Positions 10,537 through 52,919 of a DNA stretch of 64,000 nt are shown piece after piece. The notes beneath the pieces were generated by a model. That model saw only the letters and a list, made by a program, of their open reading frames with translations, was not told where the DNA came from and ran no database searches. The position numbers were made by a program, and so were the translations under genes. The DNA comes from Chrysomallon squamiferum. Taxonomy: Eukaryota; Animalia; Mollusca. The DNA lies in contig CM022673.1 in assembly GCA_012295275.1 (NCBI GenBank), forward strand, positions 2,728,001 through 2,792,000, in the 5' to 3' direction. Each line of letters starts with the position of its first letter. Position 1 is the first letter of the stretch.

Positions 10537-10575
<39 letters not shown>

Positions 10576-18736: not shown

Positions 18737-18779
<43 letters not shown>

Positions 18780-19285: not shown

Positions 19286-19325
<40 letters not shown>

Positions 19326-22300: not shown

Positions 22301-23097
22301 TAAGTTTTCTCATACATCTGTTATCATGTACAAAAAAATAATATCTGATGCCATTAATAATAAAATACATTGATATCTGCTCAAATAAATGTTTGTTCTT
22401 TATTCACAGAATCAAAATAAGGGCTCACAATATTCTTTGGCCAGGTGAACGCTTTATGCAGCCATGGGTAAAAGATTTGTCTGGAGATGAGTTAAGAAAA
22501 GCAGTTCATGACAGAATTGTAGGTGTGGTTTCCAAAACCAAAGATCTGTAAGTTCATTTAATTTGTAATGTATAAAATGCTTCATATTTTTCAGTAACTT
22601 CTGAATCATATTTTCTTCAACTTATATTGTTTAGTTAATAAAAAAAAAAAAAAAAAAAAAAATTAATATAAATATTGACATATATTTTACTATTATATTG
22701 ACTTATATTTTAGTGCAATATTTTATTTTGTTGTTTTAGTGTCGAACACTGGGATGTAAACAATGAAAATCTTCACAATTTTTATTACCAAACCAAACTT
22801 CAAGACTTAAACTACAACCTCGACAATTTCTTGCTAGCCCATCAAACAGCCCCAAATGTGAAGATGTTCTTAAACGAATACAACGTTGTTGCTGGTGGTG
22901 GCACTACTGGGGTAGGTAAAATATGCTTCTTGGCATCATAAAAGTTGCATACTTAGAGGTAACAATAAACAATAATATGATCATCAATTGACCTGTAATT
23001 TAAAACAAATAATGTAGGAATTGAAATAGTAAGGACATTGATAATAAAAACAACATATTCTACTGCTGCTTTCATTACTATTACTGCAAGTATAAAC

Positions 23098-23137
<40 letters not shown>

Positions 23138-24693: not shown

Positions 24694-24805
24694 TGAATTT
24701 GAAAATATGAAAAAACTATTTTATTTTTTTTTTTTTAATCAGAATAAAATGAAATAAATATTTTATACTAAATGTGTTCTTGAATATGATTTTGTTATAG
24801 GATAA

Positions 24806-24807
<2 letters not shown>

Positions 24808-24856
<49 letters not shown>
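24808..24856. repeat. (AT)n microsatellite
   Basis: Perfect AT run just past the 3' UTR of xylanase copy 1. Confidence 0.9.
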
Positions 24857-24857
<1 letters not shown>

Positions 24858-25089
24858 CAGTAGTTTGGTACATTAGTGCAATATGTAAATGTAAAATGTC
24901 ATTTTAAATTTTATTTTCTGTATTCTCTCAGTCTCTGGTCTTTTTTTTTTTTTTTTTTTTTTGATTTTCTGCACTCCTTGAGTCTTTACAAAAAACAAAA
25001 AAAAAATAAATAAATAAATAAAATAATAATAATAATAATAATAATATATGGACAATTTTAATAAAGTAAATTGTTTTAAATAAATAAAT

Positions 25090-25800
25090 ATAAAATGTTA
25101 AATAAGCGGACCTGTTCTTGCCACTTACAATATATGGACATTTTTCCCAAATCCAGATTGTTTTTCAGTGGATATGTCCTTTAGATAAGCGGACACCTAC
25201 TGAACACGAACGCGGACAGCATTTTTTTTTATTATTATTATTATTCCACTGCTAAAGCGTACAGTTATGTCGATCGATTTTTTTTTTTTTTTTTTTCAAA
25301 AATAACTAATTTTATTGTACGGTATTTTTAAAGATGGCCTCACCCAATTCCTGCAGTGCACAATGCGTGTTGTTTTCTCCAATCAAAACAGTCCGCAGCT
25401 GCAGTCACCAAACGTCTGCCGGTCAAACCGCGCGAGTTCATCCCATTCGAAACGTAATTCTGTTAATTCAGATAATCATCATCATCATTCCGTGCATAGT
25501 TTTTTTATAAACACCGCGTCTTAGCACAAATCTGAGCTCTGTTTGAGTTTCAGACGCAATATTTTGTAAAACTTAAATATGTCTTCTTCACATTATGTGT
25601 TTTATAACGTGCAAAATATGTTTTATTTACATCCATCAGTGAACTCGATATGTTTGCATGATGCTTGCTGTGGCATTAAATGCTCGTTGGTGCATTGGAA
25701 TAAAGACTAAATAGGTTAAAAATTGTTTGTAATTTTTGTCACTCTGGTGAAGGGGAACCTGCGATGTAGGGACACTGTTGCTTGGGACACTGTTGATCAT
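25090..25800. mobile_element. Probable non-autonomous DNA transposon/MITE remnant between the two xylanase copies
   Basis: CpG-richer block with internal subrepeats (ATAAGCGGAC at ~25102 and ~25185, GCGGACAGC ~25212, GGGACACTGTTG twice at ~25769-25796). It has no counterpart upstream of copy 1. No clear TIR or TSD identified. Confidence 0.35.
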
Positions 25801-26024
25801 GTACCCTATCATGTCTGTTCTTTAATAAATGAATGAATGTGTGTGATAATCGTATCTCCACATATTTAAGAATTATTGATAATGGTTAATTAATATCAAG
25901 AAAGTACAGTGTGGAGAGAGAGAGAGAGAGAGCTAAGTTCATAGAGCATAACTAGCAAAGAATATTTTGAGTCCACCTCCCCATAGGTCGGAAAACATGC
26001 CACTGTCTTCCTGGAACAGGAAGT

Positions 26025-26166
26025 ATCACAAAATAGAATATTAATGAGGAGGTTATGTTTATCACAAAGTAGAATATTAATGAGGAGGTTATGTTTATCA
26101 CAAAATAGAGTATTAATGAGGAGAATTTGTTTATCACAAAATAGAATATTAATGAGGAAGTTATGT
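26025..26166. repeat. 36-bp tandem repeat x4 (ATCACAAAATAGAATATTAATGAGGAGGTTATGTTT) upstream of xylanase copy 2
   Basis: Four units read directly. The homologous position upstream of copy 1 (~17258-17290) has a single unit. Confidence 0.88.
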
Positions 26167-26604
26167 GAAACTAATAAGACACAACTGATTTGTTACAGTA
26201 AAATGAGTTTTCCTGGGAAATGAATGCATGTGACAGTTCAACTATTTTAAACACCGTTTTGCAAATATTTCTTCATTCTCCTGTCTGGACCTTGACCAAA
26301 CTACAGAAATCTGTGAGAAGGTTGCAATATGGTCAGCCTTGAATTTCATTTTTTTTTTTTTTTTTCCTCTTTTATAGAAGTAAGTTTGATACAAATCAGA
26401 TAACCTACATATCTGAGAGAGAAAAAAAAAAAAAAAAAAAATTAACCAGGCCATTTTATCACATAAGTCCATAAACTAGCAGATGGCATAAAAAAAAAAA
26501 ATAAATAAAAAAAAATAATAATAATAATAAAAAAAAAGAAAGAAGAAACTTCAGGGAACATAATATATTCATTTATTAGTGAATCCTCAGCTGGTTTAAA
26601 GTTG

Positions 26605-27592
26605 ATGATGCTGTGCAAGGTGGTGTTGATAGTTTTCCTGTCTTCTGTTAGTTGTCAGGAGATTGTGAAAAATCATGACATGGAGAGCCTGGATCACTGG
26701 GTCTGCTGGGGTTTGCAGTGTCATTTGACAAACATTCACCACAGTGGATCTCATGCAATACAGACTTCTGGAAGGTTTGTATAGTTAATATACACATCTG
26801 TGTATTAATAATCTTACAAACATACATTCTTGGATATACACAAATACATACACATGTATAGCCAATCATTGTGCGTAGTGGAAAAATAAAATGACAAGAT
26901 ACTTTTTTATATTTTCAGAAACTACCCAAAAATATAGCTTTTTGGGATGAAATTATATTTGTGCCCTCAGAATTCTGGACAAGCTTTTTGCAGTAATCTT
27001 TGTACTGTTGGCCATCTGTAACGATTTCAATGCAGTGAAGCACGTTCACTCAAAATCCACTACAGACAAGGGTATTGGTGGAAATGGCTAACCTTGTCGG
27101 ATTGCCAGATTTATTAAAATACATTTTAAAACAAATACCACCAATATGCATAGAACTGTAGTAATTGTTAATGATATATTTATAGTGAAGATACGGCAAA
27201 CATGGCGCCCAACGTTTAACAAAAATCTAGAATGTGTTAACTTTTTCTTAAAAGGGGAAAGCTATAGTATAATAGACTGCAGAGGATAGGTTATAAACAT
27301 ACATGTAATAGAATCATGATAGTCTGGATGCAATGCTTAACCGTGACAGAAAAAAAAAACAAATGATGATGACTTCTTTGAAGATCTGTTATAGTTTTTT
27401 CTTCAGTGCAATGCGTTGATGCCTGGAGCCAGATCTTTTGACCAATGGGAATTGGTCTTTAGCAAATACTGATGAAGTTGAATGTAGAAAAATGTGGTCT
27501 CACTCACCTGGGACCGAATTAATAAGAAATTTACTGGAGAAAATATTTGTTGTTTTTGTGAGACTTTTATTTTTATTCAACAAATTACTGTT

Positions 27593-27646
<54 letters not shown>

Positions 27647-29762
27647 GTATAATTATTTAATATATTTACACAAAGACAGTTGTACATATAGCTAATTTTA
27701 TAACCATGTACATTAATATACAGTTACTTCAAATATGTAAATAAATCATATGCTGCATTATCAACATCAATATAAAAATAGGACATTTTTTTTTCTTTCA
27801 ACTAAATGAAAATTGTCATACGTCTTTGAAGGTGTATGCATTATGACATTACGATCTTTCAGTAACGCAATATTTATCTTTTAAAAACTAATGTTAATCC
27901 TTTTTATCATAATTCGTTGTTGTTGTTGTTTTTTTTTGGTTCTTTTTTTTTTTTTTTTAATTCAATATCTGCAAACAAATTAAGAGTTCTTTCATAAAAC
28001 GAACTGGGCTGTTAGTTCTGTTATTAAGATGTTAGCCAACTCTGCGATGGGTTTGTAGGATCGATCCTCGTGTTTGGATCGTGTGTGAAAGGTTCCTTGC
28101 TATCCTTGTTCCAATGATGTGACGATGAGGGGTTCCTCCACTGTATTATCACTAAACAACAAAAACAAATATTTTAATTACTTAACTAATCAATTATTTA
28201 AATAAATATTATGTAAATAATTGTGACAGACAAACAAGCAACATTTTTCAATCCAAAAACCACTTTATTCCGTTTGACCATCAATTTCTTTTTCCTCGCG
28301 ACAGAACTCAGTACTACCAAGGTCCACTTCAGGATGTTACACTTGAACCAGGAAGAAGTTACAATGTGTCTGCTTATGCCCAGTTAGTGAATGATAAACC
28401 AGGAGAAATTAGACAGAGCCTGCAAGTAGAACTTTCTCTTAAATACACTGGTTAGTACCTGTTACATACCTATGACAATTTAGAGTTGTATTCATCCCTT
28501 TCGGGTGCTTTAAAATCGTTCTTCTTTAAAATAAAAATAAAAATGATGAGTTGGTCATTCACTTGTTTTTACTCGTTTTAATTTGTATATTAAAATTATA
28601 TTAGAATATTGTTTAAAAAAAAAATCATTTTTTTCTTATTTTGTGTTTTGTTTTGTTTTGTTTTGTTTTGTTTATTTGCTATTCCTCTTCAAAAGAAGAT
28701 ATTACTTAAAAGGCATTAACAGCTTCAAAATTTTTAGCAGCTAGTTTCCATTCACTGATTAGTGGTTTGTGTGTGTGTGCGTGTGTACGTGTGTGTGTGT
28801 GTGTTACTATTTTAATCTGTTATTTTGTTTTCACTTTGATTTCATTTCATAATTTTCATTAAGTATATAATTTCATTGATTAGTCTGGAATGTGTTTTTT
28901 GTTTTTGCATTTTTTTTTATTTTTTTTTTATAGATACACTTTTGAGATTTTGTTTGATTTATTTTACTGTCATTTTATTTATGATGATGATGATGATGAT
29001 TATTATTATTATTATTACTTTAAATTAAGAAAAAAAAGTGTAATAAAATACTAAATATAATGTTTATGTATTGCAGACGATTCCGTCGAGTACTTTGAGG
29101 TAGCAAATGAACCATTGGCGCGCAAATCAGATGGGTGGGTTCATCTCCAAGGCGATATCCATATTCCAGACAAACGTAATGTTTCTGTTTATTTTTATTT
29201 ATTTTTTTTGTTTTTTAAAAACACGAACTTTTACGTTTAAAGTAAATATGTTTTATAATGATTTTCAGTTTTAAAGTGAAATTTAGGTGGTATGAAAAAG
29301 TCATTACGCAAGTTATGTCTCAGATTTTGTATTTATTTATTTATAATTAATACTAAAGTATAACTACACTGGCCTATGTGGAAGAAACATTCTGTTATTC
29401 TTAAAATATACTGCAGTACAAATATGAAATATAAGGACTGTTTAGTTTTAACTGTTTCATTTCAGAAATAAAGACAGCGTACATCTACTTTCAAGGCCCA
29501 CAAGCCGGTGTTGATTTTATCGTTGATGACGTGTCAGTTCATCCTGTACAAAAAGACTTGAACTGGCGTAATGAGTCACAAGCCAATATTAATAAGTTCA
29601 GAAAAAGTGATATTATTATTAAGTAAGTACAGTTATTTATAGTGTTATTGATATCTTATAATTATTACCAATTTCTGAATATTACTATTGTTATAATTAT
29701 TATTACTATTTATTTATTTATTTATTTATTTTTATGTTGTTGTTATTATTACGACTATTTCA

Positions 29763-29795
<33 letters not shown>

Positions 29796-32700
29796 GGAAA
29801 TAATTACTTATTTTTGTTTCAGTGTTCACACACACGGATCTGTGGATTTAAGTCAGGTGCAAGTTGAGGTTTGTTTCAGTTGTATCCATATACAAAAACA
29901 GAGTAATCCTACATTTTATATTTTTCTTCATAAAATATATATAAAAAAAAAAAAAAATAATAATAAAGAAAAAAACCTTTTAATCTTGTATTCATATTAT
30001 TAAAATAATGATGTTATACTTATTCTGGAACTTTGGATCAGTCTCTAATATTCATATGGATGAGTCAAAAAAAAAAGAAAAAAAAAAGATGTCAGTACAT
30101 TTCAAATATTGCTTTAAAACTGTTACTATTTTATTTCAGATAAAACAGGATGAAAAAATCTTTTCCCTTTGGAACAGCTATTGCCTGCAAAGAATACTAT
30201 AATGGTGACACAAGATATCAAAATTTTATACATCAGCATTTTAACTGGGCTGTCACAGAAAATTGTCTCAAATGGATAGAAATGGAGAGAATAAGAGTAA
30301 GATGAAACACCAGTCTCACCGATTAAGTTTTGATTTTTTAAACAAATGATAGTTAGTGAGTTTGTATCTTGTCAGATCTAATTATATATTTTTTTAATTT
30401 TCTATTACTTATACTAACACTGACACTGTTCTGCACAAATAATTTTTAGATTGTAAGTCCATAACAAAGATGCTTGAATTTTTCACTGGATGAATCATTT
30501 CAAATAATTTGATTTAATAATTTCTAAGCAAGTAAATATATTGTATTTTGATAAACCATCAAAAAGCAAAATGTAAAGGTTTAAGGAAATAAATGAGAGG
30601 AAGAGAAAGAGAGAGAAACTGACAAAGACCGAACGTGAGTGAAAGCTATTCCATTATTTTTGTAATTAAAATGAGCACTAAATTTTTTTTTGTTCATTTG
30701 TTTTTTCCCAGGGACATATTGACTATGATACTCCACTGCATGCACTTCGAAAACTTCAACATCATGGGTAAAATTATTTGTAAATATATTGTTTCTTTTG
30801 TCTTAAATCTCAAGTTACACAAAGTTGTTATAACAGTTCTCTAAATAAAAATCAGCTGAAAATCAATACTCCTTGGTGTATCCATTTTCCTATTTTCCAT
30901 TTCCTCAAGACTCATTTATGAAATTCATTGGCATGTATTATCCAGCCAATGAGATGGTGCATGTAAAAGAAACCACTGCTGCTAAAAAACCAATAGCACT
31001 CTTACTATGGGGCCATATATTTTCTCATACATATATTATCATATACAAAAAAAAAATCATGCCTGATGCCACTAATAATAAAATATACTGATGTTTGATT
31101 AAATAAATGTTTGTTCACAGAATCAAAATAAGGGCTCACAATATTCTGTGGCCAGATGATCGCTTTGTTCAGCCATGGGTAAAAGCTTTGTCTGGAGATG
31201 AGTTAAGAAAAGCAGTTCATGACAGAATTGTAGGTGTGGTTTCCAAAACCAAAGATCTGTAAGTTCATTTAATTTGTAATGTATAAAATGCTTCATATTT
31301 TTCAGTAACTTCTGAATCATATTTTCTTCAACTTATATTGTTTAGTTAATAAAAAAAATTAAAAAAAAAAAATATATATATATATATATATAAATATTGA
31401 CATATATTTTAGTATAATATTTTATTTTGTTGTTTTAGTGTCGAACACTGGGATGTAAACAATGAAAATCTTCACAATTTTTATTACCAAACCAAACTTC
31501 AAGACTTAGACTACAACCTCGACAATTTCTTGCTAGCTCATCAAACAGCCCCAAATGTGAAGATGTTCTTAAACGAATACAACGTTGTTGCTGGTGGTGG
31601 CACTACTGGGGTAGGTAAACTATGCTTCTTGCCATCATAACAGTTGCATACTTAGAGGTAACAATAAACAATAACATCATCAGTTGACCTGTAATTTAAA
31701 ACAAATAATGTAGGAATTGAAATAGTAACTATAATGATAATAAAAATGATACTACTACTACTACTACAAATAATAATAATGACAATAACAACATTAATAA
31801 AAAAACAATAATAAAAGCATATGAAATATTAATAATGGCTGCAGCAAATAAAACAAAATAATAAGAAGATTGTCTTAAATACTTTTATTTCATCTTTTCT
31901 GAGAATTAATTTTTAATGACAATCCATTTTAAACATTATTTTTGATAGATATTTGAAAATGCTAGTAAAAGTTTCATTTCTATTATTTTCAGGCCTATTT
32001 GAAACAAGCCTTGAAATTCAAGCACGCTAATGTTGGACTTGCTGGTATTGGAGTGCAGTGCCATTTTGGACACCACACACCAGATCCAGTACTTATTAAG
32101 GTTAATATTTATTTTATTTATTTATTTAGAAAATAAATTTTATTGATTTTAAATATTATAGAGGAAGGCAATCAGGGTAGAGTATATTAATAAAAAACAA
32201 AGAAACTTGCTTTTCTACCAAAAGAAACAAACCCCAAACAAAAAATCTTACCAAAACCAGATGAGTAATTAAATAATTTAATTAACTTCTGTTGTTATGG
32301 AATAACTTTGCTAATTTCTCTAACTTTAAGAGTGTTATCAGCATTTAAGTGAAAAACAAAAAATTGAAAATGATCAGTTGTATTGTTCAGTGACAGATCT
32401 ATAACTGATTAATTCTATATAGAAATAGGAGATTTAGGAATAGATTTTGACATACCATCATTTCACCATATATACAAACCCACAATTAATGATTAAAACA
32501 TAATATGGATACTGACATGATTTTTCATCATTATATACAAACCAAAATATTGATGCAATTTCCATAACATCATAATCATAATCATCTCGTCATATATCCA
32601 CTATTAACCATATGTATAAAGCATGGGTTTTCATAAGATGATCATTATCATCATCACCATCATCATCATCAAGTTTAAAACTGCAATTAATCATAAAAGT

Positions 32701-34349
32701 AAAATATAACAGTTATTTGTTTTCATCTTGACAGAAACGTCTTGATCTGTTAGCCAAGGCTGGGGTTCCTATCTGGGTTACAGAACTGACTGTCTCTTTC
32801 AGCGATGTGAACAAACGTGCAGATGCTTATGAAACTGCTCTAAGAGTGCTCTACGGTCACCCGGCTGTTGAAGGTCTTCTGTTCTGGGGATTCTGGAGTC
32901 TGCACCACTCATCTGGAGAACCTGGAGCTTTAGTCAGTGGGCACGAGTTTAGAGTAAGAAGTTTATCATAGTTACTGCACTTGGACACAAATACGTATGT
33001 GCATGTGTGTGTGTGTGTGTGTGTAAGTGTTATTTCTTTTTCTTAAATATGTTTATCTACTTTAATCTGGATTATTCACTTGACCGAATGAAACCATGTC
33101 GAATGTTACATTTTATGGTAAACAGTTGCTACAATAGGTGTTGGATATGAAGATGTCAGGTAATATGATATAATACAATACCCATAACAAACAAAAGCAA
33201 GGACTTTTTAATACACTTCTCTAAAATGTGTTAAATCAGTATAGATATACCTGTTGGAAAAGAAAAATAACGTAACAAGCAAATATATAACATACCTTTT
33301 ATTAAAGTTTATTATCTGAATGGTAATTATTGTATAATTTAACAATATGGATGTTTGTACATTACATTGTTTCTTCTGTAAATAAATTTAGATTGGAAAT
33401 TTTAAATATTAAATATGTTTTTAATCATTTCATCTGCACACATGGGTGATTTCCTGTTCCAAATAGGTCCACAATTTCAGAAACCATATTTCCTGTCAAG
33501 TTTTTGCAAGTGTAATGAAGACCATTTACAGCTGATAACAAAATGTAGCAAGTTTTCTCTAATGAGTGTTAGAAATAATTAACTGTGCAAGAAGTCAAAA
33601 TATTAACAGTTAAATGTATTTTATTTATTGTAGCATCAAGACAACAAACTGTAGAAAATGTTGAGAAATGTTTCGTTTTTTTATTTTTGAACCACATCTT
33701 GAAGATTACCAATCTGTATATACCAGACTATTTCAGCTTGATGTTTTATGAATTCTTGAACAGTGCAGCTGTTTTAAATCAGTTGTGATCAATTCTAGAT
33801 TATTGCAGATGTTCTAAATCAACTGCAGATGTTCTAAATGAATTCTAGACCATTTCAAGTGTTTTAAATATGTTTTAATGAAATGTAGATCAATACAGAT
33901 GTTTTAAATCAACTGTAGATCAATACAGATGTTTTAAATTAACTGTAGATCAATACAGATGTTTTAAATCAATTGTAGACCAATACGGATATTTTAAATC
34001 AATGTAGATCAATACAGATGTTTTAAATCAAGTGTAGATCAATACAGATGTTTTAAATCAACTGTAGATCAATACAGCTGTTTTAAATCAACTGTAGATC
34101 AATGTAGATGTTTTAAATCAATTGTAGATCAATGCAGCTGGACACAGAGTTTTGCATCTGCTGGAGAAAGAATGGATGACTCATGAGACTCACACTTTAT
34201 CACAATCAGGCAAACATTTCACAGTCCATGGTTTCCATGGAGACTATATGGTACATGTCAGGTACAAAGGTCGTGAGGTCATGGATCAGAGGCACAGGTT
34301 CACACTTGGAAAATCTTCACACACAATCAATTTGCATGTGTCAAATTAA
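26605..34349 (+). CDS. Secreted endo-1,4-beta-xylanase (CBM + GH10), copy 2; +1 frameshift in exon 6 (pseudogene or assembly error)
   Basis: 12 exons: 26605-26774, 28305-28450, 29077-29175, 29466-29622, 29823-29868, 30140-30296, 30712-30767, 31121-31258, 31439-31610, 31993-32100, 32735-32953, 34128-34349. Same motifs as copy 1 (WDVNNE, VPIWVTEL). An extra G at 30152 leads to TAA at 30200-30202. Confidence 0.88.
27596..27642. repeat. (CA)n microsatellite in intron 1 of xylanase copy 2
   Basis: Perfect CA run; it explains the THTHTH stretch in the ORF track. Confidence 0.92.
28005..28170 (+). mobile_element. Degenerate tRNA-derived SINE-like fragment
   Basis: B-box-like GGATCGATCC at ~28058, a GC-richer core and an A-rich simple tail (AAACAACAAAAACAAA). 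Family not verified. Confidence 0.35.
33765..34127 (+). repeat. ~30-bp splice-acceptor minisatellite abutting the last exon of xylanase copy 2
   Basis: Near-perfect units ATCAATACAGATGTTTTAAATCAACTGTAG from ~33889, degenerate units further upstream. The final unit supplies the acceptor TTGTAG|ATCAATGCAGCT. Confidence 0.92.
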
Positions 34350-37300
34350 TGAATTTGAAAATAAAAAAAAAATTTTTATTTTCTTTTAATCAGAATAAAG
34401 TGAAATGAATTGTTTTATACTAGTTTTGTTCTTGAATATAATTTTATTTTAGAATAATTATAAATAACTGAAACAAACAAATAGGGGACCAGAGTTTGAT
34501 GTAACAGAACAAAGTGTAATAGTAACATATCACTTCAAGTTTTATTTTCCATATTCCCTCCATGTCTCCAATTTTTATTATTTTGTTGATGTGACTTACA
34601 CATTTTATTTAAATTGTTATTCTGCTGAAACTTTATTCATCATCTTTGCAGTATATTTTCAACTAATTTCAGCATAAGAAAAATATTACGAAGATATTGT
34701 GGAGTTTACAAACATCTGGCAGGAGTAAAAGATGAATTTCAGTTTCCTTTCAGATAACATTGGTCAACATGTTTCTAAATTATATTTTCAAATAATGGAG
34801 AAAGTTAGCACCCCACAGATTAGATTTTAATCTGGCCATAGAAGTATGATGAATCATGCAGAGAAGTTATAAATACATAGCATTTACTTACCCATTCCCC
34901 AGCATCCTCACAACTCACAATGGGTCAGTATTGTCTAAGCAGAGAATCACTGATCTAATTGTGTCCGATTATAAACAGATGTGTCTGATTCTTCCACATT
35001 TAAAACAAAAGTAACAATTGATATGTATGCAAAATGAAAATATTTATTAGAAAGTGCAAAACAATTTTAACTCAACAGAATTAAAACTTTAAGTCTACAA
35101 ATACAAATGTTTTATGTTACAAATGATGTATTTTACATGCTAATGCAAAACATATCATTGCTGTTGTTCTGTAAATACATATTTATGATAATCACATCAC
35201 TGTTTACAGCAGCAGATAAAATGAATATGAAATACTGGCTGTAAATATCACATGATACCAGCACTGCTATTAACTACTTCAATACGCATCATCAATGCCC
35301 AGATTTGTTATAAATAACATAAAAATTAAAATTAAAAAAAAAAAGAACAAATAAACACAACATCTGTTAAGATTGGACAAAACAAAATTAAGTTAACACT
35401 GAGGAATGTTGTTTTAAAAAATAAATAAACCTAAATTCAGTTACTGTGAGAATGTTAAGTAGTTTTTGTTAAATATATTACAGTGTTCTGAATTTTATTC
35501 AAGAAAAGAAGTATTAAAAATGGTTACAACACATCAAACTACTGTAAAAGTCTGCAAGAGAATATGTACCAGAATTAAATCTTCATAAATACATAATCAT
35601 CTTGGCATTACCATACCCTCAGAATTACATGCACATTTTGGGGGAACATTGCCTTAAACTTTCAGTTTGTTAAAAAGGATGCCTGGTATTCTAAAACATG
35701 ACGTTAATTAACAACAAACAATATGTATATTCAACACTTAAACAGATTAAAACCAATTACAGGTTGACCATCAATGACCAATATGAAATAATTTGGATAA
35801 AGTAATATAATATTTCCAAAATATTCAAATAATCAATTATCTATTTGCATGGTAATCCAGCTGTTACAGATGTATAAAAGTTAATGAACATTTTCATTTG
35901 TTAATCAAGTCCAGATGTTCATTAATGTTATATAATATTTTATTTTTTTACATACAGTTCTATGAATATACATTTCTTAAAGGTTCCTTTCAAAGCAGGA
36001 TATCCTGTGTATGTGTGTATTTGTTTTAAAAATTACTTTACTGTACGAACAATATTCGAGATTGACATTTTCATGAAGAGCTATTTATCTAGGGAGATAA
36101 TATTTGTTTATACCTACTTAAATGTCATGATTTACGAATACGATTATGATTATTATGATTATTTGTTTATTTACTTATGTAATTCTTTTGTTTTGCTTTG
36201 GAATGAATAACACTAACCAGTTAATGTTCTAGTAGTGGTCAGCCTGTAATGTGATCACCTTTTCCTGTGATATTAATAAATAAAAATAATAAATAAATAA
36301 ATAAAACATTAAAAGTGCTCACTCATTTTTTTCCACACATTTCTTATAAAAACACAGCAATCTCTAATATGCTTAGTTTTGGCATGTATAACAGTAAATA
36401 TATCTCCCAGACTTCACAATCATAGTCTATATAAAAATTAAATTTAGATGCCATTAAAATATAGCAAAAAAAGATAAAAATGAACACAACAGATTAATTT
36501 AATTTTTTTAATGTAAATATTATGCCAAAGAATGGAAATAGGAACAATAGTAATAAAAATAAGATCTGATTATATTTCTAGGATTTCACAAAAGAATTTA
36601 ACTTGAAAAATAAAATCATATTTATTATAAAGAAATAAAAACAACAAATGGACAAAGGTTTAGGGACTTGATACATCACCATTTCAGAGTATGGAAATAT
36701 AAGTAATAAAAATGACTATAAAATGTAACATATTATATATCTCTGTATGATACACCTATGGCTGATATAATTATATGCTGGGGTTGTCATTAAATAAATA
36801 TTTATTGACATGTAACACAAAGTATAAAAATAAACAAATAAAAATGCAAAATTAGATTATCAAAATAATAATGATTTTGTATCTTTGATACTTGTAAGGA
36901 CTCACATTCACAAAACAAAAATATAAATTTACATTGTTCTTGCATATATTACATACATAAACATTTATATATTTTCTTTCTTTTTTCATTTTTTTTGAAC
37001 ATTTTTAGTACACAATAACAAATTTATGACACACACCTGTACATTTCAATTTACATACATAAACTTTCAAGCTTTTTATGAATATGTCTCTATGTTCTTT
37101 AATTACAATGTGACCAGGAAAGAATTTTCTTTTTTTAATCTTTTCACATCTTTTTACTTTCATTTAAAAAGAAAAGTGTATCCATATATATATAAAAGAA
37201 ACAACTTCATTTAAATATCTTTTAGATAAAAAATACTAAAAACACACCAAACTAAACAAGATTTTTAGCTAAAGTTTCACATATTTTTCTACAGATTATC

Positions 37301-37742: not shown

Positions 37743-38860
37743 TCACTTTTCTTTTTTCACTTCGTGAGCATTTCCATTCTGTACACAAGTTCCATTTGAA
37801 ACTTTCATCTCCTTCTGAAAACAACAAACATTCAAATCCAACACTGAAGTTAATACATAATTTTGACAGCAGGCATTAGACAAAATCTCCATTAAATATA
37901 TATAGTAGGTATAGTGAGAGAGAGAAAAAGAAAAAGAGAAAGAGAGGGAGAGTGTAAGAGATAAAGAAAAAACTCTCCATTAACTGTATGTATAACCATT
38001 ATCAGTGTAGAAAAAGAAACTGACAGACATACAGAAAGACAGAAAAGTGAAGTAAAGAGGGAGAGTGCAAGAGAAAGAGAAAAAGAAAGAAAACTTGTGG
38101 TTTGATTGGGGGGGAAGTAGTGAGATGTATAATGTAAATTTTACAAAGCAAAGAACCATCTGTATAGAATTATGTACATAACATATGAATTCATCATTAG
38201 AAAAAAAAGGAAAGGAATCCATAAAGAGTTTTATATCCTTTTTCAACAACGATTTTAACAGACAATCCTAGTATTTATGCCTGAATTATATACATTTAAA
38301 AAAAAAAAACACAGTTACCTTTAGTTGCTGGGCTTTGATATAGGCATGGAAGTAGAAGTTGAGAAACAGCAACAAAATTGTACCAGCATATATAATTAAT
38401 GCCCAGTGCATCCATGCTGGGAAATCGCAACCGTACACAAGCGACTGGGCTGAGTGGGTGATGCCAGCCATGAACTGAATCTAAAACAAAATTTTCATTT
38501 CCTAAATAATTACCTTGATCTTTTCCTTCAAGTAAGCCTGCATGTAAAAGTTGATGAATAAAGCAATGATTGTAATGCCATACACAAGAGCTGCTAGCTG
38601 CATCCATATCGGGAAATCGCAACCAGTGAGCAGGGTTTGTATGGTGTATACCATTCCAAGAAAGAATTGAGTCTACAAAGCACAAGAGGAGATGGTGTCT
38701 TAGTAAACTGGTGATGGGGGGCATTTTAGTTCAATTTATCTTTTTTTGGTTTAATTTACTTTAATTGCTGATGTAAAATTGTTTAAATGGTATTTTAAAA
38801 TATAACGGAGTAAGATATAATGATCATATAAAATACATTTGTGACAAAACTTATCATCAT

Positions 38861-38907
<47 letters not shown>

Positions 38908-41900
38908 GATATATGGAATCTCAAAAGTTTTTCTTTTTCGTTCCTTGTATCAAACAACAAAAATAGTTGTACAGAAAATGTATATTATATGATGAAATTA
39001 AGCTTATTATTTGTTACTTGGCCAGTGATAATTTAAGATTATAAGTAAGAAAGGTGGCCATCATTTCTTTTATCATGACAGATTTTTTTACAGATGAATG
39101 TAAAAATAAAACTACTGACAAATTCAAACTTAATAAATCATTGAAAAACACACATAAAATCTATTTACATTAATATTTATAAAATAATGTTGTGATAAAA
39201 TTTTTAAATATTTGGTGCAGTATATCCTTACATGTTTATTATTTTGTTTTCATAGTTTACTATTAGACTGGACACAAGTAACAAGACAAAATAATCACTT
39301 GAAGTATATTGTATTTAGACTGCTTGCATAGATGACCTGTCTATGAATTTTACACTTAATGTGATTTAAAAATATTAATAATAAAAACCCTAAATTCTAT
39401 ACCATATAAATATTTAAAGGTATATTAAAGTTTTAACATTAGAAAACAAATTCTTCGAATCTAGAATCGGTAATACCTTATAGCAGTGCTTATTGTTTTA
39501 AAAGGAAGAATACTTTTTTACTTATTTTAAAACCTAAGAATTTAAAAATAATGTCTATTGTGTAATATTTAATTTTGTTTTCCATGTTTAACTTAAATGT
39601 TTATTATGTTAAAAGGAAACATTTTTAAAACTTATTTTAAAACCCAAGAATTTAAAATTAATCTCTAACGTATAATATTTAATTTCATTTATCTTGAATA
39701 TGAAACTAAACCTTAATTAAATATTTAAAAATATTATAAAAAATTAACTTTTGTTTTTAAACAAAAGCCAAAAAATGTATTAAGCGAAGTAAAAATAATA
39801 AACTGGGCAAATAACTAAAAACTGGCAAAAAGGGTTAACAAAAAGCTGAACAACATCTAACTGAAACTAGAACACTGGATGCAGCTAGCATGCTTTAATC
39901 ATCAACTTTATAAAAATAAAACAGTGAAAACTAAAAACACTTTCTGAATACAAAGTTCAAAAACATTATTGAACAAAAATAATTATAAAAAAAAAACGAA
40001 AAAAAACAAACATGCATCATATGTAATCAAATTTTAAAAAACCAAAATAGATATCAAACATTCAAATATTGGGACAACATTTTAAAAAATAAGCATTGTT
40101 TAAAACACTTTACAGCAATATTTATAATATTTTGCTTGTTATGCACTATCAGTGTAAATACAATGCCATATTTGTTTATTTGTTCAATGTTATTGTTTTT
40201 TGTTTTATATTTTTTTTTATCAAAACTGATGTGAAATAATTTCTACATGTATTTAATATTTACTGCAGTGTTCTGACTAATAGTATTTATTTACCATGTA
40301 AATTAACAAAACTTTTCTGATTAATCTCTGAAGACCACTGTAATTGCCATTTGTCATTATGTATGTATATATTTATGAGTAACAACAAATAATTGTGTGT
40401 GTATTCTACAAGTGCTATGAAAACTATAACAAAATTAAATTAAAAAAGAACAAGAACAAGCTCTAAATACCAGCTGTAATTTGGTCAGGTATCGCTTCCA
40501 CCACAGATACTTCTGGAATTGAGGACCCAGTGCAGCCAGGCCATAGTATGAATACATGATCACATGAATGAATGAGTTGATCATTGCACCAAAGAATGCT
40601 GGTATTATCCAAAAAAAAAAAATATATATATATATATACACACACAATAATAATAACATGAAGCATAACATATAATCTTATTAAAATGATATAAACATTA
40701 TTAGATCTATTTTAATACAGTTGTAGGAAAAATGGGATCTGTATAAAATTATTTCAGCAAAGAAACTTAGTTTAAAGAAAATTTGGTTTTGTATATCATT
40801 ATTACTATGTATACTATCATCATCATCATCATCAAAATCATTATAGTTATCATACTGATCCAGTTATCCAAGAATACTATCAATTTATTCAATGTTTAGA
40901 ATAATAACATTATCAAAAAATTAAAAATAACAATAACCATTTTCATATTAAGAAATTTTGAATTTATATAAATTTTCTGACTTAATATTACATGCAGGCA
41001 TATTCTATCTAAATCCTTACACATATCTTTTTTTTGTATATATAAAATAAAAATTGCAATTTAAATTTTTTTTAAAGTTAACTTCAAATACTTACACTGG
41101 CCTCCTGCCACCCATTTCACTCCTATCCACCAGATGGGAAACATGGTTGCATGATGATACACGTGCAGAAAGCTAACTTGGTTATTTTTCTTGCGTAAAA
41201 TGAAAATAACTGTGTCAAGCATTTCTAGAAGCTTTGAGAAGTAAAACCACCATAAAGCGCTTGCAATCTGAGATATAGTAAATAAAAGAAATCATTTTTG
41301 TTAACATTTATTTGTTAAGAAAAATATGACTGCTGTTATATTTTGAGAATTCTCTTTTGCCCTTGCTTTCTCTCTCACAAAAACACACCCATAATCTTAA
41401 AACATATTTTAAGTAGCTTACAGTCTGTAAAAATGTCTTGTAATATTAAGCAAGTCTGAACATTCACCAATAACCTTCAGCATGCAAACATTTTGATTTC
41501 TAATACATAAAGCTTGAACTAATCCCAGGATTTATTCATTACCGCAAGGATTAAAAGAGAATGTTGGGTACTAATCTCTTTAATTTTTCACTAATCTTCA
41601 AAAGCCATATTTACCTATGAACAAGTAAAAAGTGAAGTTTATTTATCATACAAGAAGTCAGATAACATATTAAAGTTTAGCAGAACACCTTAAAAGAGTT
41701 TCCTCTGAATTAATGTTTAAGATATGAGCAAAGAAAACACTGGACACAATGTGATTTCCACATAATTTGTCTGACCACAAACAGGAATGAAAAAAATAAA
41801 AAAAATTAAATAAAATGGATGAATGAACGAATGAATGAATAAATAAATAAAGAAAGAAAGAAAGAAAGAAAAAATGAATATTAAATTTACCTTCATTTCT

Positions 41901-43682
41901 CCTTCATCATATGTATATCTGACTGGCTGACATATGTAACTATAACCCTGTCGTGTACTCCATACTAAAAGCTAAAAATTAAGAATAAAAATATTTTCTT
42001 TATAATTTCATCCAGATATATAAAAATAAAATAAAGGCTTGAACAAGAAATACGCACCACATCTACTGGTGTGAACTCAATTAGCTTTTTCAAGAAAAAC
42101 ATGTTATTTCTTTAGCTTCATTATCAGTGTTACTCCCCTTTGACCATAAAAATTAATATAAACTAAGAAAATTCCTCATTTTCATAATTATATAACTAAA
42201 ATATTTTTATAATTTGTTATATATTTTTTGAAATGAAATTTGATGTTTTGCTCTAAAGATCATATTGTTTCTTTTACAAGGGTTATTTCCCTTTGACTAT
42301 GAAGAAATCAAAAATTGTGAACTATCTCTCACGCTTAAGTTTATTATTTTAACTTTATAAATGAATGTTTAATCAGATAATATAAAGAAACTAATCTTGG
42401 TTTTTTTACTCTTAAAAAATTAAAACCGTAGGCACTTCGTAATTAAAAAGCAAAATCTGTTACTTTTGAAATGAGAATAAGCGCCAGATTATTATGAATA
42501 TTATTATTTTAAAATTATACGTAAATACTTTTTACCTGTTAACACAAATCAGTTAAAAGATATTAAAATATTCTTATACATGCATTGCTGTTTCTTACCT
42601 GTGTGCATATATGGAGGTTCACAAGAATTAGAATGAAATTGTAAAAGTTGATAAACCATTTCAGGTTGAAAGGTTTTCTTTTGGCCATAAGCTTTGGTCC
42701 AATCCAGACAATGGCGAGGTACAGCAGTGTGAAGTAGAGTGTGGGCAGACAACTGTCCATAAGTAGCCAGCCCTTGACACGAACATCTGAAATCAGGTTT
42801 ATCATACACGTGTATGTCTGTGCTCAAAAATATTGATAATAACTAATAATAGTAACAACGAAAGTAATAATAGTAATAATAATAATAACAACAATAATAG
42901 TAATAGTAATAACAATAATTATAATGATGTTAACAACAATAAAAACAACATCAATAATAATTTCAAAATATTTAAAATAATAATGATAATAATAGTAACA
43001 ATTAAAATAACAACATAATTATAATAACAATAACATAATAAAAATAATAATAATGAATGATATTAATAAGAAATTTATCTTGAACTCGAAGCTAAAAACA
43101 TATATATATATAATAGAAGTAAAATAAAGAAAAAGAATAAAAACAGTAACCACTGCCAACAACAAAAACACCCAGATATCATTCTTATCCAAATTAAATG
43201 TTAAACAAATATAACTTCTTCATTTTTTTGTACACAAGTTTGTCTATTACATATACATGTAGATGCAGCAATTTGTATTCAAAGTGCTTGTCCCTTGAAT
43301 AATTTCATATCTGGGAATAATCAACAGCTTCAGGCTGGCAATGAAGCCTAAACCCTAAATCCTATTACATTTCAAATTATATATACATCTCTCCTGATTG
43401 TTGTTTTATATATGATTCTAAATTCATTTTGTACACATAACAAAGTTTGTTATCACTGCATGAAAAGAAAAGAAAAGAATAAAAAAAAACATAATTTAAG
43501 CAATATTTCCAGATTTCGTAAATCTGGATAGAGATTGCTCAAACTATATAAGTTTGTGTATGTTTGTTTTTCACTATTTTAATCTAATGTATGTTCAGAT
43601 GACCAAGTTTCTCACCTGCAGAGTCCAGACATTTCTCATAGAAGGCCTGAAGCTCATAAATCTTGTCTAATATCACCTCCAT
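37743..43682 (-). CDS. ELOVL4: Elongation of very long chain fatty acids protein 4-like, with two alternative versions of exon 6
   Basis: Exons: 43682-43616 ([11 protein letters not shown]), 42786-42599, 41971-41891, 41267-41096, 40598-40471, [38672-38514 or 38480-38319], 37814-37743. Motifs: [31 protein letters not shown] (HxxHH box), [37 protein letters not shown]-terminal KKEK dilysine ER-retrieval signal. There is no intron after ..LDT, as in vertebrate ELOVL4. Confidence 0.9.
38319..38480 (-). CDS. ELOVL4 alternative exon 6b (54 codons, phase 0-0)
   Basis: TTTTAG|ATTCAG...CTAAAG|GTAACT; encodes [54 protein letters not shown]. This is the more canonical ELOVL4-like version (CxFPxWMHWALIxY). 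Confidence 0.9.
38514..38672 (-). CDS. ELOVL4 alternative exon 6a (53 codons, phase 0-0)
   Basis: TTGTAG|ACTCAA...AAGATCAAG|GTAATT; encodes [53 protein letters not shown]. Branch-point-like TACTAAG lies ~30 nt upstream. Confidence 0.85.
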
Positions 43683-48923: not shown

Positions 48924-51900
48924 ATGTCATTTTGGGAAACCTATGACAATTTGATTACCAAACAACGAGGTAAATCTTCTTAAATATGCTTTTTTCTGTG
49001 CTGTGCTCTCTTCTATCCACCCTAAATTGAAACAAATAAAATAGATTTTGGTTAATGGTAAAATGTCATATATTTCCTCTGAAGATTATTATTATAGCAT
49101 GATAAAAACACAGTACTTACCATCTGTATGAAAAAATAAATATTTCAATCTTTATATAATTTTCAGATGGTCACAATATTAGACAATAATATGAATTCTA
49201 ATATATATTTAGTGAATGTTTGTAAAAATGTAAGACCCTGTGTTTGCATAAAAAATAATGTCATGTTTTGTATTGATATTATGTCAAAATTTGTAATATG
49301 TAATTATGAAAATATTTTTTGTTTCAATTTTTTATTTATTTAGTTACTTACTTATTAATTTTTTTTTATATAAATTTATTTTATCATTTTTTACTATATA
49401 AGTTATTTAAAAAAAAAATTATTATTTTAATTTTTTTATTATTATTATTTATTTTTATTTTGTTCTTGTTTAAGATACCCGAACAGATAATTGGTTTCTG
49501 ATGTCAACACCATGGCCTACTCTGACTGCTGTCGTCCTTTATCTTTTGTTTGTGGTTTTGGGACAGAAATTCATGGCAGACAGAAAGCCATTTGATCTGA
49601 AAAAAGTTCTCATTTGTTACAATTTTTGTTTAGTGCTGCTTTCAGCATTTATGTTTGAAGAGGTAAAGTTCTGCTAAAATTATTATTATTGTTTCCTTTT
49701 CTTCTTCTTCTCATTATTATTATTATTATTATTATTATTTATTATCATTATTATTATCATCATTATTATCATTATCATTATTATAATTAATGTTTCTTCT
49801 TGTTATGCTTAGTGTTAACAGAATTTTACTATAACTTATAAACTGTAACATTTTTTACACAGCTGTTTACACTGTGTTTTGACTAATTTTGAATTTTAGC
49901 CTAGAAACTTTGACCTTTTTGTTATATTTACCTTTGTTTGACATCTGACCGCTGATATATTTGTTTGTGCTGGTGCGTCGTTAAATATTCGTTCATTCAT
50001 TTATTCAGTATCAGTGTTAAACGTATTAAGGAAATTACAAAAACAAAAAGTATTTAGAAAGCATTTGAATAGGTCAGTTAAATGCATCTATTAACTTAGG
50101 AATAAAAAATATCAAATAAAATTTGAAAAACAATTATTCATCAAAGTATCATTAACATATGTATCTAACTTTTCTTTTTATTTCATTTATTTCAAGGTGT
50201 TTCACAATTTAAATATAATCCTCCCAAAAATTAATAATTTGTTTAATTAATAAATACAAAATGATAATGAATACATTTAAAGAGCTGTAGTTGGACAGAA
50301 AAAGAAAAATAATCATTAATAATATCTGATTGTTGTGATTGTTGTGTTATTTTTTTGTACAGTAATTTTGATTTCTGTTTTAGTTTCTTGTGTCTGCATG
50401 GATGCGGCCTGGTTTCAGTCTGATGTGTGAACCAGTGGACAGCTCAAATGATCCGATGTCAGTACGGGTGAGTCTTTAATACGATAAATTAATCTCTTTA
50501 ACTTTTTGATATATTTAATCTATTTAACTTCATAACTAAAATTTAGTAAATGTAATCTGTTTAACTTCATAACTAAAATTTGATAAATTTTATCTGTTTA
50601 ACTTCATAACTAAAATTTAGTAAATGTAATCTGTTTAAGTTCATAAACTAAAATTTGATAAATGTAATCTTTATTTTTAAAAACTATCTGTCTTAGGATG
50701 AATATAAAATAATTTTGAAAGTGTTCATATACCTGTGAATTATGAATTTAAAGAAAGTGATGATAATTTGAAAGACAACAGCAGTTAGTCTCAGTGGGGA
50801 TGTATGAAAATAGAAATATAAGTCATATTCAGTGGACTTTAAAACTTAAAATACACACATTTTATTTCTTCTTTTATATATATATAATTCTTTTCCTTTT
50901 TAAAAATTTTTTTTTTATTATTATTGTTTTGTTTTTAGCTTGCAGAAGCCTGCTGGTGGTTCTACTTCTCAAAGATTATTGAACTTTTCGATACAGTAAG
51001 TACAAAAATGTAACTAGACACTGTAAATTTGTTGTTTTTAAGAAGGTAAATAAAAAATTATATCACCTGTACAGCTAATCTGAACATATAAAATATATTA
51101 ATATCACGTACTTTGTAGATTTTATTTTATGATAAGAAGCCAACCTATTTTGAAAATATAAGATTACATTAACATGTCCAGGCAGGACTGCAAAAGATAT
51201 AAGATTCAATTCTTCTTTTGTATGTGCTCTTGAAATGACACATGACTATAATACTGAGGCAGCCAGGAGAGTGGACTGCTAGTGTTATCACTATCAAATA
51301 CTGTATAAAAAGAATTGTAGAATTGTAGAATACTGTGACAACGTATTTTGTGTAAATGACATGTTAATTTAATAAGGCTGAATAAAATGATACAGTATTT
51401 GTATTTATTGACTGTGTTTTTTTTTTTTTTTTTCCCACAGGTATTTTTCGTTCTACGTAAGAAGAACAATCAGATCTCATTTTTGCATGTTTATCATCAC
51501 TCAACTATGCCAATTTTGTGGTGGGTTGGAGTTAAATTTGTGCCAGGTGGAGAATGTAAGTGTATCTACTAAAACTTAAAGATGTACTGAAATTTCTAAT
51601 GTATAAATAACAACATTAAGGTTGTCTGGAAGAAAGAATTAAGGCGTGTATGTTAAAATATTTATCCAGTTTTTTCTGTCCTCTTGAAAAGTTTTCAGAT
51701 ATGATTTTTGATTCTTGTTAAAGTTATCATTTAAAATATTCAAAAGGAAGCTGAAAAGAAAGTTTATTTGTTTGTCTTTAAAAACAATTATAAAATAAAG
51801 GAATATTTACAAAGATTTATCTAGTTTTGTAGAAAATATTTTATTATCAGTTTTATTAAAATATATGCTGCATATTAATATAAGTGAGATTAATAAACAC

Positions 51901-52919
51901 AATCAAACACTGAATATATAAAGAGCCAGCAATGCAGATTGTTGATTGGCGAAAAGGATTTTGTGAGTGTCAAAATGACAGAATGAGTGAGAAACCAAGA
52001 ATTAATTTATTCAACACAAAATCTTTGTTAATAATAAAGTAATTTGATTTAGGTATAATATCATTTTATTTCACTTAAGCTGAATTTTATTTATTTTTAA
52101 TATGAGAGAGATAGAGACAGATAAGTAGAAACCCATAACAAATATATCTGTAAGTTGCTAACAGTTTGTTATTTTAATATTTTCTCTTACTTATTTTCAG
52201 CATATTTTTCTGCCAGTCTCAACTGTTTCATCCATGTTCTCATGTATATTTACTACCTGCTGTCAGCGTTTGGGCCGAGGATGCAGAAATATCTGTGGTG
52301 GAAGAAGTACATGACAACTCTACAGCTGGTTAGTACAGTGAAAGAAACCAATATTTGTTTAAATAGATCTTTTAGGTATCAGATGTGCTGTGTTTTGCTG
52401 CTGTTCTTTTTATATTTGACTTATGAGGGCACAACCATTTTTGCAAACATTTGCATATAGGCATGGACACAAAAAATACACAGAAAATATTTAGAAAAGA
52501 ATTTTACTCATACACAAACATTCATACATGCTTTGTTCACTAACATAATCAGTAGAAAAGATATTTTTAAAAAAAGTAGCTTTCACATATGCACAAACAT
52601 GTATGCATGATTACAAATTCAGATTGGGAAGAAAATATTACAAAAATGGACATTAATAAAATTTGCTTTGTTTTTTATTTCAGATTCAGTTTTGGGCCAT
52701 TCTCCTCCATACCAGCCAGGCCATGTACATCAGCTGTGGATTCCCCATCGGCTACGGCTATGCTCTTATCAGCTACATGATCTCTCACATCATCCTGTTC
52801 TCCAACTTCTACTACCAGACGTACCACAAGAAAAACACCTGGCAAAGAAAACTGACAGCATTTCCAATGGTGTTGCTAATGGTTACGACTTTCATAAAGT
52901 GACCTCTAAACAAGAGTAG
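48924..52919 (+). CDS. Second ELOVL family fatty acid elongase (ELOVL4/7/8-like); probable 1-nt deletion near the C-terminus
   Basis: Exons: 48924-48969, 49475-49662, 50384-50467, 50939-50995, 51441-51555, 52201-52328, 52684-52902/52919. Motifs: [98 protein letters not shown]. Confidence 0.9.
50515..50670. repeat. ~37-bp tandem repeat x4 in an intron of the plus-strand ELOVL
   Basis: Unit TTTAACTTCATAACTAAAATTTAGTAAATGTAATCTG, with alternating TAGTAAAT/TGATAAAT variants. Confidence 0.85.
51148..51293 (-). repeat. Dispersed repeat, right arm of an inverted pair with 48532-48639
   Basis: Reverse complement reads TAGTGATAACACTAGCAGTCCACTCTCCTGGCTGCCTCAGTATTATAGTCATG...(extra ~37 nt)...TGCCTGGACATGTTAATGTAATCTTATATTTTCAAAA. 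Confidence 0.85.

What the first reader, a model, noticed from the sequence alone, without database searches (positions are those of the whole stretch)
38319..38672. Duplicated, mutually exclusive exon in ELOVL4: two swappable C-terminal transmembrane cassettes
Seen in sequence: two paralogous exons (6a, 159 nt; 6b, 162 nt), both phase 0-0, both stop-free with canonical AG/GT, share the GCDFPxWM...F(I/L)NFY..AY.K scaffold but differ at more than half of their residues. Only 33 nt separate them (GTAATTATTTAG...TTTTAG), and this spacer has an in-frame TAG after 6a. Established: introns this short are below the usual minimum for animal spliceosomes, and steric hindrance between closely spaced splice sites is a known way to enforce mutual exclusion. 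This exon encodes the last TM helices, and in yeast Sur4/Fen1 a residue in the equivalent region sets product chain length. Inference: one gene makes two elongases with different substrate or chain-length specificity, for example PUFA versus very-long-chain or non-methylene-interrupted fatty acids. I know of no such cassette in vertebrate ELOVL4.
Basis: partly seen in the sequence, partly recalled or inferred. Interest (0 to 1): 0.85.

Follow-up and report, generated by a model that had tools for sequence, protein, structure and literature searches.

The report
Ancient either-or exon in mollusc elongase
A snail gene for a fatty-acid-lengthening enzyme carries two side-by-side versions of one exon that its RNA uses one at a time, the same pair occurs in clams, snails, a lamp shell and two worms, and the swap changes a residue predicted to line the fat-binding pocket, so one gene likely makes two enzymes with different fatty-acid preferences.

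Summary
Observation confirmed, on the minus strand. Exons 6a (38672-38514) and 6b (38480-38319) are homologous, intact, phase 0-0, 33 nt apart and 24 of 53 residues identical. RNA contigs join exon 5-6a-7 and exon 5-6b-7 in 2 of 3 RNA runs laid (the third shows 6b only); no 6a-6b joint appears. The pair is old: 22 of 22 hand-picked isoform pairs from 21 species (18 molluscs, Lingula, Tubulanus, Owenia) are identical upstream of the cassette, and 6a-type cassettes form one branch, though AU tests do not reject separate origins. The position matching ELOVL7 I242, which lines the acyl pocket, is Gly/Ser/Ala in 30 of 30 6a-type and Leu/Val/Cys in 54 of 54 other cassettes. A difference in substrate or chain length is likely but untested. 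Novelty is limited: both isoforms are in RefSeq models, and razor-clam and Manila-clam 'Elovl4 a/b' cDNAs are this pair; the razor-clam paper could not be read. No paper describing the cassette or its depth was found. The scan had not noted this pair before; it noted a different exon pair in a crustacean elongase.

The parts
43616..43682 (-). Elovl4-like gene, first coding exon (from ATG)
   Evidence: Open spliced model; matches the Gigantopelta protein; junction not checked in RNA
42599..42786 (-). coding exon 2
   Evidence: AG/GT ends; Pfam ELO 47.6 bits
41891..41971 (-). coding exon 3
   Evidence: Open spliced model
41096..41267 (-). coding exon 4 with the HxxHH catalytic box
   Evidence: Pfam ELO 76.5 bits; 98% identical to Gigantopelta aegis
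40471..40598 (-). coding exon 5, common upstream exon (TM5, start of TM6)
   Evidence: Its 3' end is the loose end of both 6a and 6b RNA contigs
38514..38672 (-). exon 6a, derived-type cassette (Tyr at ELOVL7 position 221, Ala at 242, Gly at 246)
   Evidence: RNA contigs 5-6a-7 in runs X1 and X3; 47 of 49 residues identical to Gigantopelta isoform X1
38481..38513 (-). 33-nt spacer between 6a donor and 6b acceptor, with in-frame stops
   Evidence: Sequence; no RNA contig covers it and no joint skips it; the other six introns are 497-1798 nt
38319..38480 (-). exon 6b, canonical-type cassette (His at 221, Leu at 242)
   Evidence: RNA contigs 5-6b-7 in runs X1, X2, X3; 45 of 49 identical to Gigantopelta isoform X2
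37743..37814 (-). exon 7, common last coding exon with a lysine-rich end and the stop
   Evidence: Its 5' end is the other loose end of both cassettes

Best explanation
This Elovl4-type elongase gene splices either exon 6a or exon 6b between exons 5 and 7, likely kept either-or by the 33-nt gap between them, and the two proteins are predicted to differ in the shape of the acyl-chain pocket and so likely in which fatty acyl-CoAs they extend or release. SHOWN: both spliced forms exist in RNA; the pair is conserved in gastropods, bivalves, a brachiopod, a nemertean and an annelid; the exon encodes the second half of TM6, the luminal loop and TM7; catalytic and structural residues (ELOVL7 Q214, C231, F253) are the same in both, while positions 221, 242, 246 and 250 carry type-specific residues. 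INFERRED: (1) exclusion is steric, because a branch point for the 6b acceptor lies either under 33 nt from the 6a donor or inside exon 6a; (2) 6b is the canonical, ancestral-like copy and 6a the derived one from an old duplication; (3) Leu to Gly/Ala/Ser at 242 plus Gly at 246 widens the pocket beside the proposed TM4-TM7 entry portal, shifting preference between bent polyunsaturated and straighter chains or moving the chain-length stop; (4) the choice is regulated by tissue or condition.
For: RNA: contigs of 215 and 218 nt in X1 and X3 each cover exactly one cassette with 27-28 loose letters that are the ends of exons 5 and 7 (checked); X2 has one 1290-nt contig through 6b. Conservation: 22 of 22 same-species pairs 100% identical upstream of the cassette and 17-26 of 48-49 identical within it. 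Like cassettes of gastropods and bivalves are more alike (64% for 6a, 74% for 6b) than 6a and 6b of one species (51%). Trees: 30 6a-type rows at 99/94 among 87; 20 of 20 at 100/97 among 52. Order 6a then 6b in 6 of 6 gene models that hold both whole cassettes. Pocket: ELOVL7 F238 and I242 line the acyl site and the portal is proposed between TM4 and TM7 (bioRxiv 10.1101/2020.11.11.378570); three alignments agree on the 242 register; 242 small in 30 of 30 versus 0 of 54, 221 Tyr in 28 of 30 versus His in 52 of 54. Single changes near here alter specificity in ELOVL5/2 and ELOVL4 (passages). Steric threshold about 50 nt (PMC7969005 passages).
Against: No product data for either form were seen. 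6b-type enzymes already make long products: octopus Elovl4 (P0128, 6b type) makes >C24 PUFA (PMC5367039 abstract) and mollusc Elovl4 reach C34 (PMC11286186), so a small residue at 242 is not needed for length. The position matching F238 is Met in both types. Pocket geometry rests on alignments; no cavity was measured. RNA evidence is contigs from three runs of one study, which drop rare forms. Six public gene models, and part of a seventh, join both cassettes in one protein; probably prediction errors, but unchecked. AU tests on 49 columns rejected none of six alternative groupings (p 0.12-0.67), so a single origin is favoured, not proven. No branch-point consensus lies in the spacer.
Confidence: 0.62

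Rival explanations
1. The two isoforms have near-identical substrate ranges. The swap tunes something else: turnover, stability, or contacts with the other elongation-cycle enzymes or lipids through the outer faces of TM6 and TM7 and the basic residues after TM7.
For: Many type-specific differences lie outside the two named pocket residues (positions 216, 219, 222, 250, 258-259). TM6 and TM7 form the crystal dimer contact of ELOVL7. 6b-type enzymes already cover long products.
Against: The cleanest split of all columns is at a documented pocket-lining position (30 of 30 versus 0 of 54). 221 is i+7 from catalytic Q214 and 246 is i+4 from 242, so they would face the same way (inference from helix period).
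Confidence: 0.27
2. The 6a form is a low-activity or inactive variant used to turn elongation down in some tissues, since it replaces a His that most elongases keep.
For: His at 221 is kept in 52 of 54 non-6a cassettes and in ELOVL7, and is Tyr in 28 of 30 6a-type.
Against: H221 is not among the catalytic residues named in the parts of the ELOVL7 paper read (0 hits). 6a keeps Q214, the disulphide Cys and the F253 equivalent, and is as conserved as 6b against Gigantopelta (47 versus 45 of 49). The Gigantopelta 6a isoform folds like ELOVL7 (TM-score 0.81-0.91).
Confidence: 0.07
3. 6a is a dead or recent duplicate, or both exons are routinely included together.
For: 6a is absent from the contigs of run X2; co-inclusion would keep the frame; fused gene models exist in other species.
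Against: 5-6a-7 contigs in two runs, no 6a-6b joint, spacer uncovered in RNA; cloned cDNAs of each single form in two clams; conservation across several phyla.
Confidence: 0.04

Closest known systems
Sinonovacula constricta Elovl4_a/Elovl4_b (QCF41171/QCF41172) and Ruditapes philippinarum Elovl 4a/4b (WDP79934/WDP79935) cDNAs
   Same: The same event: each pair is identical over 213 of 213 residues upstream, shares its tail, and differs only in this cassette; 'a' is 6b type and 'b' is 6a type.
   Different: Bivalves rather than a gastropod. Whether the source papers call them splice forms or compare their products could not be checked (Ran et al. 2019, title only; not held).
RefSeq isoforms X1/X2 of mollusc, Lingula and Tubulanus 'elongase 4-like' genes, nearest Gigantopelta aegis XP_041365541/2
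   Same: Orthologous exon pair; 47 of 49 and 45 of 49 residues identical to the window's exons.
   Different: Automatic annotation only; no description of the event was found.
coq-2 exons 6a/6e (PMC7434440; abstract and one results section read)
   Same: Homologous mutually exclusive exons in the core of a membrane lipid-pathway enzyme, found in helminths, annelids and molluscs; one exon canonical, one lineage-restricted; two fixed residue changes near the substrate.
   Different: Unrelated enzyme family (prenyltransferase); there the substrate switch was shown genetically, here it is inferred.
Sterically enforced mutually exclusive exons (OGDH 4a/4b, alpha-tropomyosin; PMC7969005 passages)
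   Same: Donor-to-branch-point distance under the proposed threshold of about 50 nt.
   Different: Those use distant branch points in longer introns and were mapped; here the whole spacer is 33 nt and no branch point is mapped.
Human ELOVL7 structure 6Y7F and vertebrate ELOVL4
   Same: Same fold (Z 30.3, rmsd 2.1 A, 249 aligned for the Gigantopelta 6b isoform) and catalytic motifs.
   Different: No alternative cassette known to me in vertebrates (recalled); 'ELOVL' does not occur in the main text or the one held supplement of a catalogue of human tandem-exon events (PMC9741552), which may not list all events.

Membership tests
ELO (GNS1/SUR4, PF01151) elongases | Pfam ELO match above the curated cut-off | tested here: met
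   5 of 5 exons of this gene scanned pass 27 bits, including 6a and 6b
ELO (GNS1/SUR4, PF01151) elongases | HxxHH box and the KxxExxDT, NxxxHxxMYxYY, TxxQxxQ motifs (as listed in PMC12405942) | tested here: met
   Visible in the exon 4, 5 and 6 translations; the last Q is supplied by either cassette
ELO (GNS1/SUR4, PF01151) elongases | Seven-helix ELOVL barrel fold | tested here: met
   Tested on the Gigantopelta isoforms as stand-ins: pLDDT 87-89, best match 6Y7F
Elovl4 subfamily | Orthology with characterised Elovl4 enzymes | tested here: inconclusive
   Top hits are named Elovl4 and include the cloned octopus and clam enzymes; the quick tree of the shared part places it among them but had no named vertebrate ELOVL4 and weak deep support
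Elovl4 subfamily | Makes products longer than C24 | not testable with these tools
   Needs an enzyme assay
Mutually exclusive exons from tandem duplication | Adjacent homologous exons of equal phase | tested here: met
Mutually exclusive exons from tandem duplication | Each exon spliced alone between the same flanking exons | tested here: met
   RNA contigs, 2 of 3 RNA runs for 6a and 3 of 3 for 6b
Mutually exclusive exons from tandem duplication | No co-inclusion | tested here: inconclusive
   No 6a-6b joint in contigs of three runs, but contigs drop rare forms
Mutually exclusive exons from tandem duplication | Conserved in distant species | tested here: met
   21 species in four phyla; trees
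Mutually exclusive exons from tandem duplication | Tissue- or condition-regulated use | tested here: inconclusive
   6a seen in X1 and X3, not X2; samples are coded and contig depth is a poor measure
Sterically enforced exclusion | Donor-to-branch-point distance under about 50 nt | tested here: inconclusive
   Spacer is 33 nt; nearest YTNAY motifs lie inside exon 6a at -53 and -65 from the 6b acceptor; branch point unmapped
Yeast Elop caliper mechanism | Juxta-luminal lysine whose position sets chain length (PMC3966703 passage) | tested here: not met
   No lysine among the four commonest residues at any of the first 16 cassette positions in either type, and none there in the window's exons; the yeast residue itself was not aligned
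coq-2-like substrate switch (works-like only) | Isoforms shown to prefer different substrates | not testable with these tools
   Needs assays; the key clam paper is not held

The most novel reading that the evidence does not exclude
Spiralian animals have carried, since before molluscs, brachiopods, nemerteans and annelids parted, a second elongase hidden inside the Elovl4 gene. A splice switch trades one pocket-lining leucine for a small residue and a conserved His for Tyr, giving a distinct product class (for example much longer, or unusually unsaturated, chains) that single-cDNA studies of invertebrate lipid synthesis have missed.
Probability: 0.3. Interest if true: 0.72.

Novelty: new member of a known kind. 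Interest (0 to 1): 0.5.

Why it matters
What sets chain length and saturation preference in ELOVL enzymes is still argued from a few point mutants. This pair is a natural swap experiment, repeated in at least 21 species, with everything but TM6-TM7 held constant, and it names two residues to test. It also bears on estimates of how much long-chain omega-3 shellfish and worms can make: the cloned octopus and Namalycastis Elovl4 sequences are the 6b form only, so a second activity may have gone unmeasured where 6a exists.

Tried and rejected
No whole genome is held, and the metagenome scan kept 80 loci, none seen with the two cassettes in tandem, so spacer length and dN/dS in other species were not obtained. 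A protein search with exon 6a alone found nothing (28 candidates); the exon 4 search and a 6a-region search did. Only the 421-base stretch around the two exons was laid, so upstream junctions and run X4 were not examined. Absence of 6a from X2 contigs is not taken as absence. Only 6b-type sequences were seen for Octopus, Lottia, Patella, a chiton, Solemya, Capitella and Namalycastis, but no genomic search was possible, so loss is not claimed. The idea that Macrostomum split the two cassettes between paralogous genes is not supported: the free tree suggests it but a tree with its three cassettes together scored higher. The window_gene2 row came from wrong exon ends and is ignored (corrected). 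Rows dropped: 102 cassettes reduced to 87 distinct; 3 paralog rows left out of the 30/54 counts; 57 and 52 rows kept for AU tests. Over all 218 fetched proteins, paralogs included, 32 lacked the anchor and 11 distinct cassettes broke the Tyr/small pairing. The caliper-lysine and non-methylene-interrupted readings found no support. Literature: eight searches for the cassette found no description; Ran 2019 and three other recalled ids are not held; Platynereis supplements not held. No complex prediction was run, as no binding is claimed.

Full report
Observation. The + strand reading has stops; the gene is on the minus strand. The exons share 24 of 53 residues, far above 2000 shuffles (score 145 versus a maximum of 47), and each matches the same stretch of the Pfam ELO model above cut-off. 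A seven-exon model gives open proteins of 288 aa with 6a and 289 aa with 6b; both together would give an in-frame 342 aa, so frame does not enforce exclusion. The other six introns are 497-1798 nt. The nearest named protein is from the gastropod Gigantopelta aegis (exon 4 98% identical), so the organism is likely a close relative.

Expression. Five public runs hold the region, four on record as RNA, all from one study. Three RNA runs and run X5 were laid on 38310-38730. X1 and X3 each give two short contigs, 215 nt over 6a and 218 nt over 6b, whose loose ends are the 3' end of exon 5 and the 5' end of exon 7 (checked against the window). X2 gives one 1290-nt contig through 6b only. No RNA contig covers the spacer and no joint links 6a to 6b. 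X5 spans the whole stretch in one piece, like DNA. This shows both single-exon forms. It does not exclude rare co-inclusion, because contigs drop rare forms, and it cannot rank isoform levels.

Conservation. An exon 4 search returned 248 proteins, of which 120 were listed; a second search and three cluster look-ups brought the set to 218. I picked every same-species pair in which I saw both types: 22 pairs from 21 species (18 molluscs, plus Lingula, Tubulanus and Owenia). All 22 are 100% identical upstream of the cassette, 21 share a tail of 23-44 residues (the Tubulanus X2 tail differs), and they are 17-26 of 48-49 identical inside the cassette. Six gene models hold both whole cassettes, always 6a then 6b; these are probably mis-joined predictions but were not checked. 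The window's 6a is as conserved against Gigantopelta as 6b (47 and 45 of 49) and more than residues 1-112 (90 of 112). In a tree of 87 distinct cassettes, 30 6a-type rows form a branch at 99/94; in a reduced set all 20 do so at 100/97. Against this, only 49 columns are available and AU tests rejected none of six alternative groupings (p 0.12-0.67). One old duplication is the best reading, not a proven one. The single cassettes seen in hemichordates, a starfish and an acoel are closer to 6b, so 6a is probably the derived copy.

Structure. Models of the Gigantopelta isoforms, used as stand-ins, have pLDDT 87-89 and put the cassette in the second half of TM6, the loop and TM7; both match human ELOVL7. 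The ELOVL7 preprint (10.1101/2020.11.11.378570, parts 1-3 of 5 read) names W158, G161, G170, F238 and I242 as lining the acyl site, Q211 and Q214 as catalytic, F253 in the cysteamine pocket, and a portal between TM4 and TM7. Three alignments agree on the register at 242. There, 6a-type cassettes have Gly 18, Ser 7, Ala 5 (30 of 30) and the others Leu 48, Val 5, Cys 1 (54 of 54). Position 221 is Tyr in 28 of 30 versus His in 52 of 54; 246 is Gly in 30 of 30 versus 14 of 54; 250 is Ile/Val in 30 of 30 versus Leu in 48 of 54. Q214, F253 and the 238 position are unchanged. These rows are related, so the counts are not independent events. Passages in PMC10449689 and PMC9823237 report that the TM6-loop-TM7 region governs substrate preference, that one residue at the start of TM7 switches rat Elovl5 and Elovl2, and that ELOVL4 W246G cuts saturated products more than polyunsaturated ones.

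Mechanism. Shown: either-or splicing of two conserved cassettes that differ at a pocket-lining position. Inferred: steric exclusion, since any branch point in the spacer is under the roughly 50-nt threshold (PMC7969005 passages) and the nearest consensus motifs lie inside 6a, which would also exclude joint use; and a wider or reshaped pocket in the 6a enzyme that shifts substrate class or chain length. The direction is open, because 6b-type enzymes already make very long products. I give 0.62 to this whole chain and about 0.95 to the splicing and conservation part alone.

What is known. The razor clam cDNAs Elovl4_a and Elovl4_b and the Manila clam 4a and 4b are exactly this pair. The razor clam paper's title says four elongases were characterised (reference lists); its text is not held and may already describe the splicing and compare products. 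I recall that it calls them two isoforms, but that comes from no call. Eight searches found no description of the cassette or of its spread. A survey of mollusc elongases lists both oyster isoforms as separate entries; its one hit for 'splic' concerns a desaturase (PMC4550275 passages). The closest functional analogue is coq-2 exon 6a/6e (PMC7434440, abstract and section 6). Other papers were seen as passages only: PMC13701199, PMC5367039, PMC12405942, PMC8080000, PMC3966703, PMC9741552 (83, with a supplement search); PMC11286186 as Results and part 1 of 2 of the Discussion, supplements not held (64). Earlier scan notes hold nothing on this pair.

Verdict. Real, expressed and old; a new member of a known kind of event, partly in databases and probably partly in print. 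Its value is as a ready-made test of what sets elongase specificity. Interest 0.5.

Noticed in passing
window 48924-52902 (+): A second elongase gene lies head to head with this one. It has a single, unduplicated last exon and an extra intron in the exon 4 region; seven coding exons give an open 278-aa protein. Another frame after an A-run near 52831-52835 reads more like a usual elongase tail, so a one-base slip (assembly or real) is possible.
   Followed up: partly
window 38415: RNA contigs of X1 and X3 differ from the window at one base in exon 6b (A to G on the transcript, a synonymous third position); allele or editing cannot be told apart.
   Followed up: partly
P0076, P0101, P0118 (Macrostomum lignano): Separate paralogous genes, one with a 6b-like and two with a 6a-like cassette (small residue at 242 but no Tyr at 221); possible split of the splice choice between genes, not supported by the AU test.
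   Followed up: partly
P0126 (Octopus vulgaris model): A predicted isoform lacks the cassette altogether; no 6a-type sequence was seen among the octopus proteins examined.
   Followed up: no
PMC11286186 (Platynereis EloB and EloC): Two Elovl4 genes with different chain-length reach (C22 versus C24) and brain versus eye expression; whether they carry different cassette types could not be checked.
   Followed up: no
window about 17700-34400 (+): Two or more tandem copies of a multi-exon gene whose motifs look like a GH10 xylanase (name recalled, not tested), with near-identical repeated exons.
   Followed up: no
window 15044-15475 (+) and 9786-10748 (-): An intronless ORF resembling the spliceosomal protein Dim1/TXNL4A and exons resembling NDUFA9 (names recalled, not tested).
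   Followed up: no
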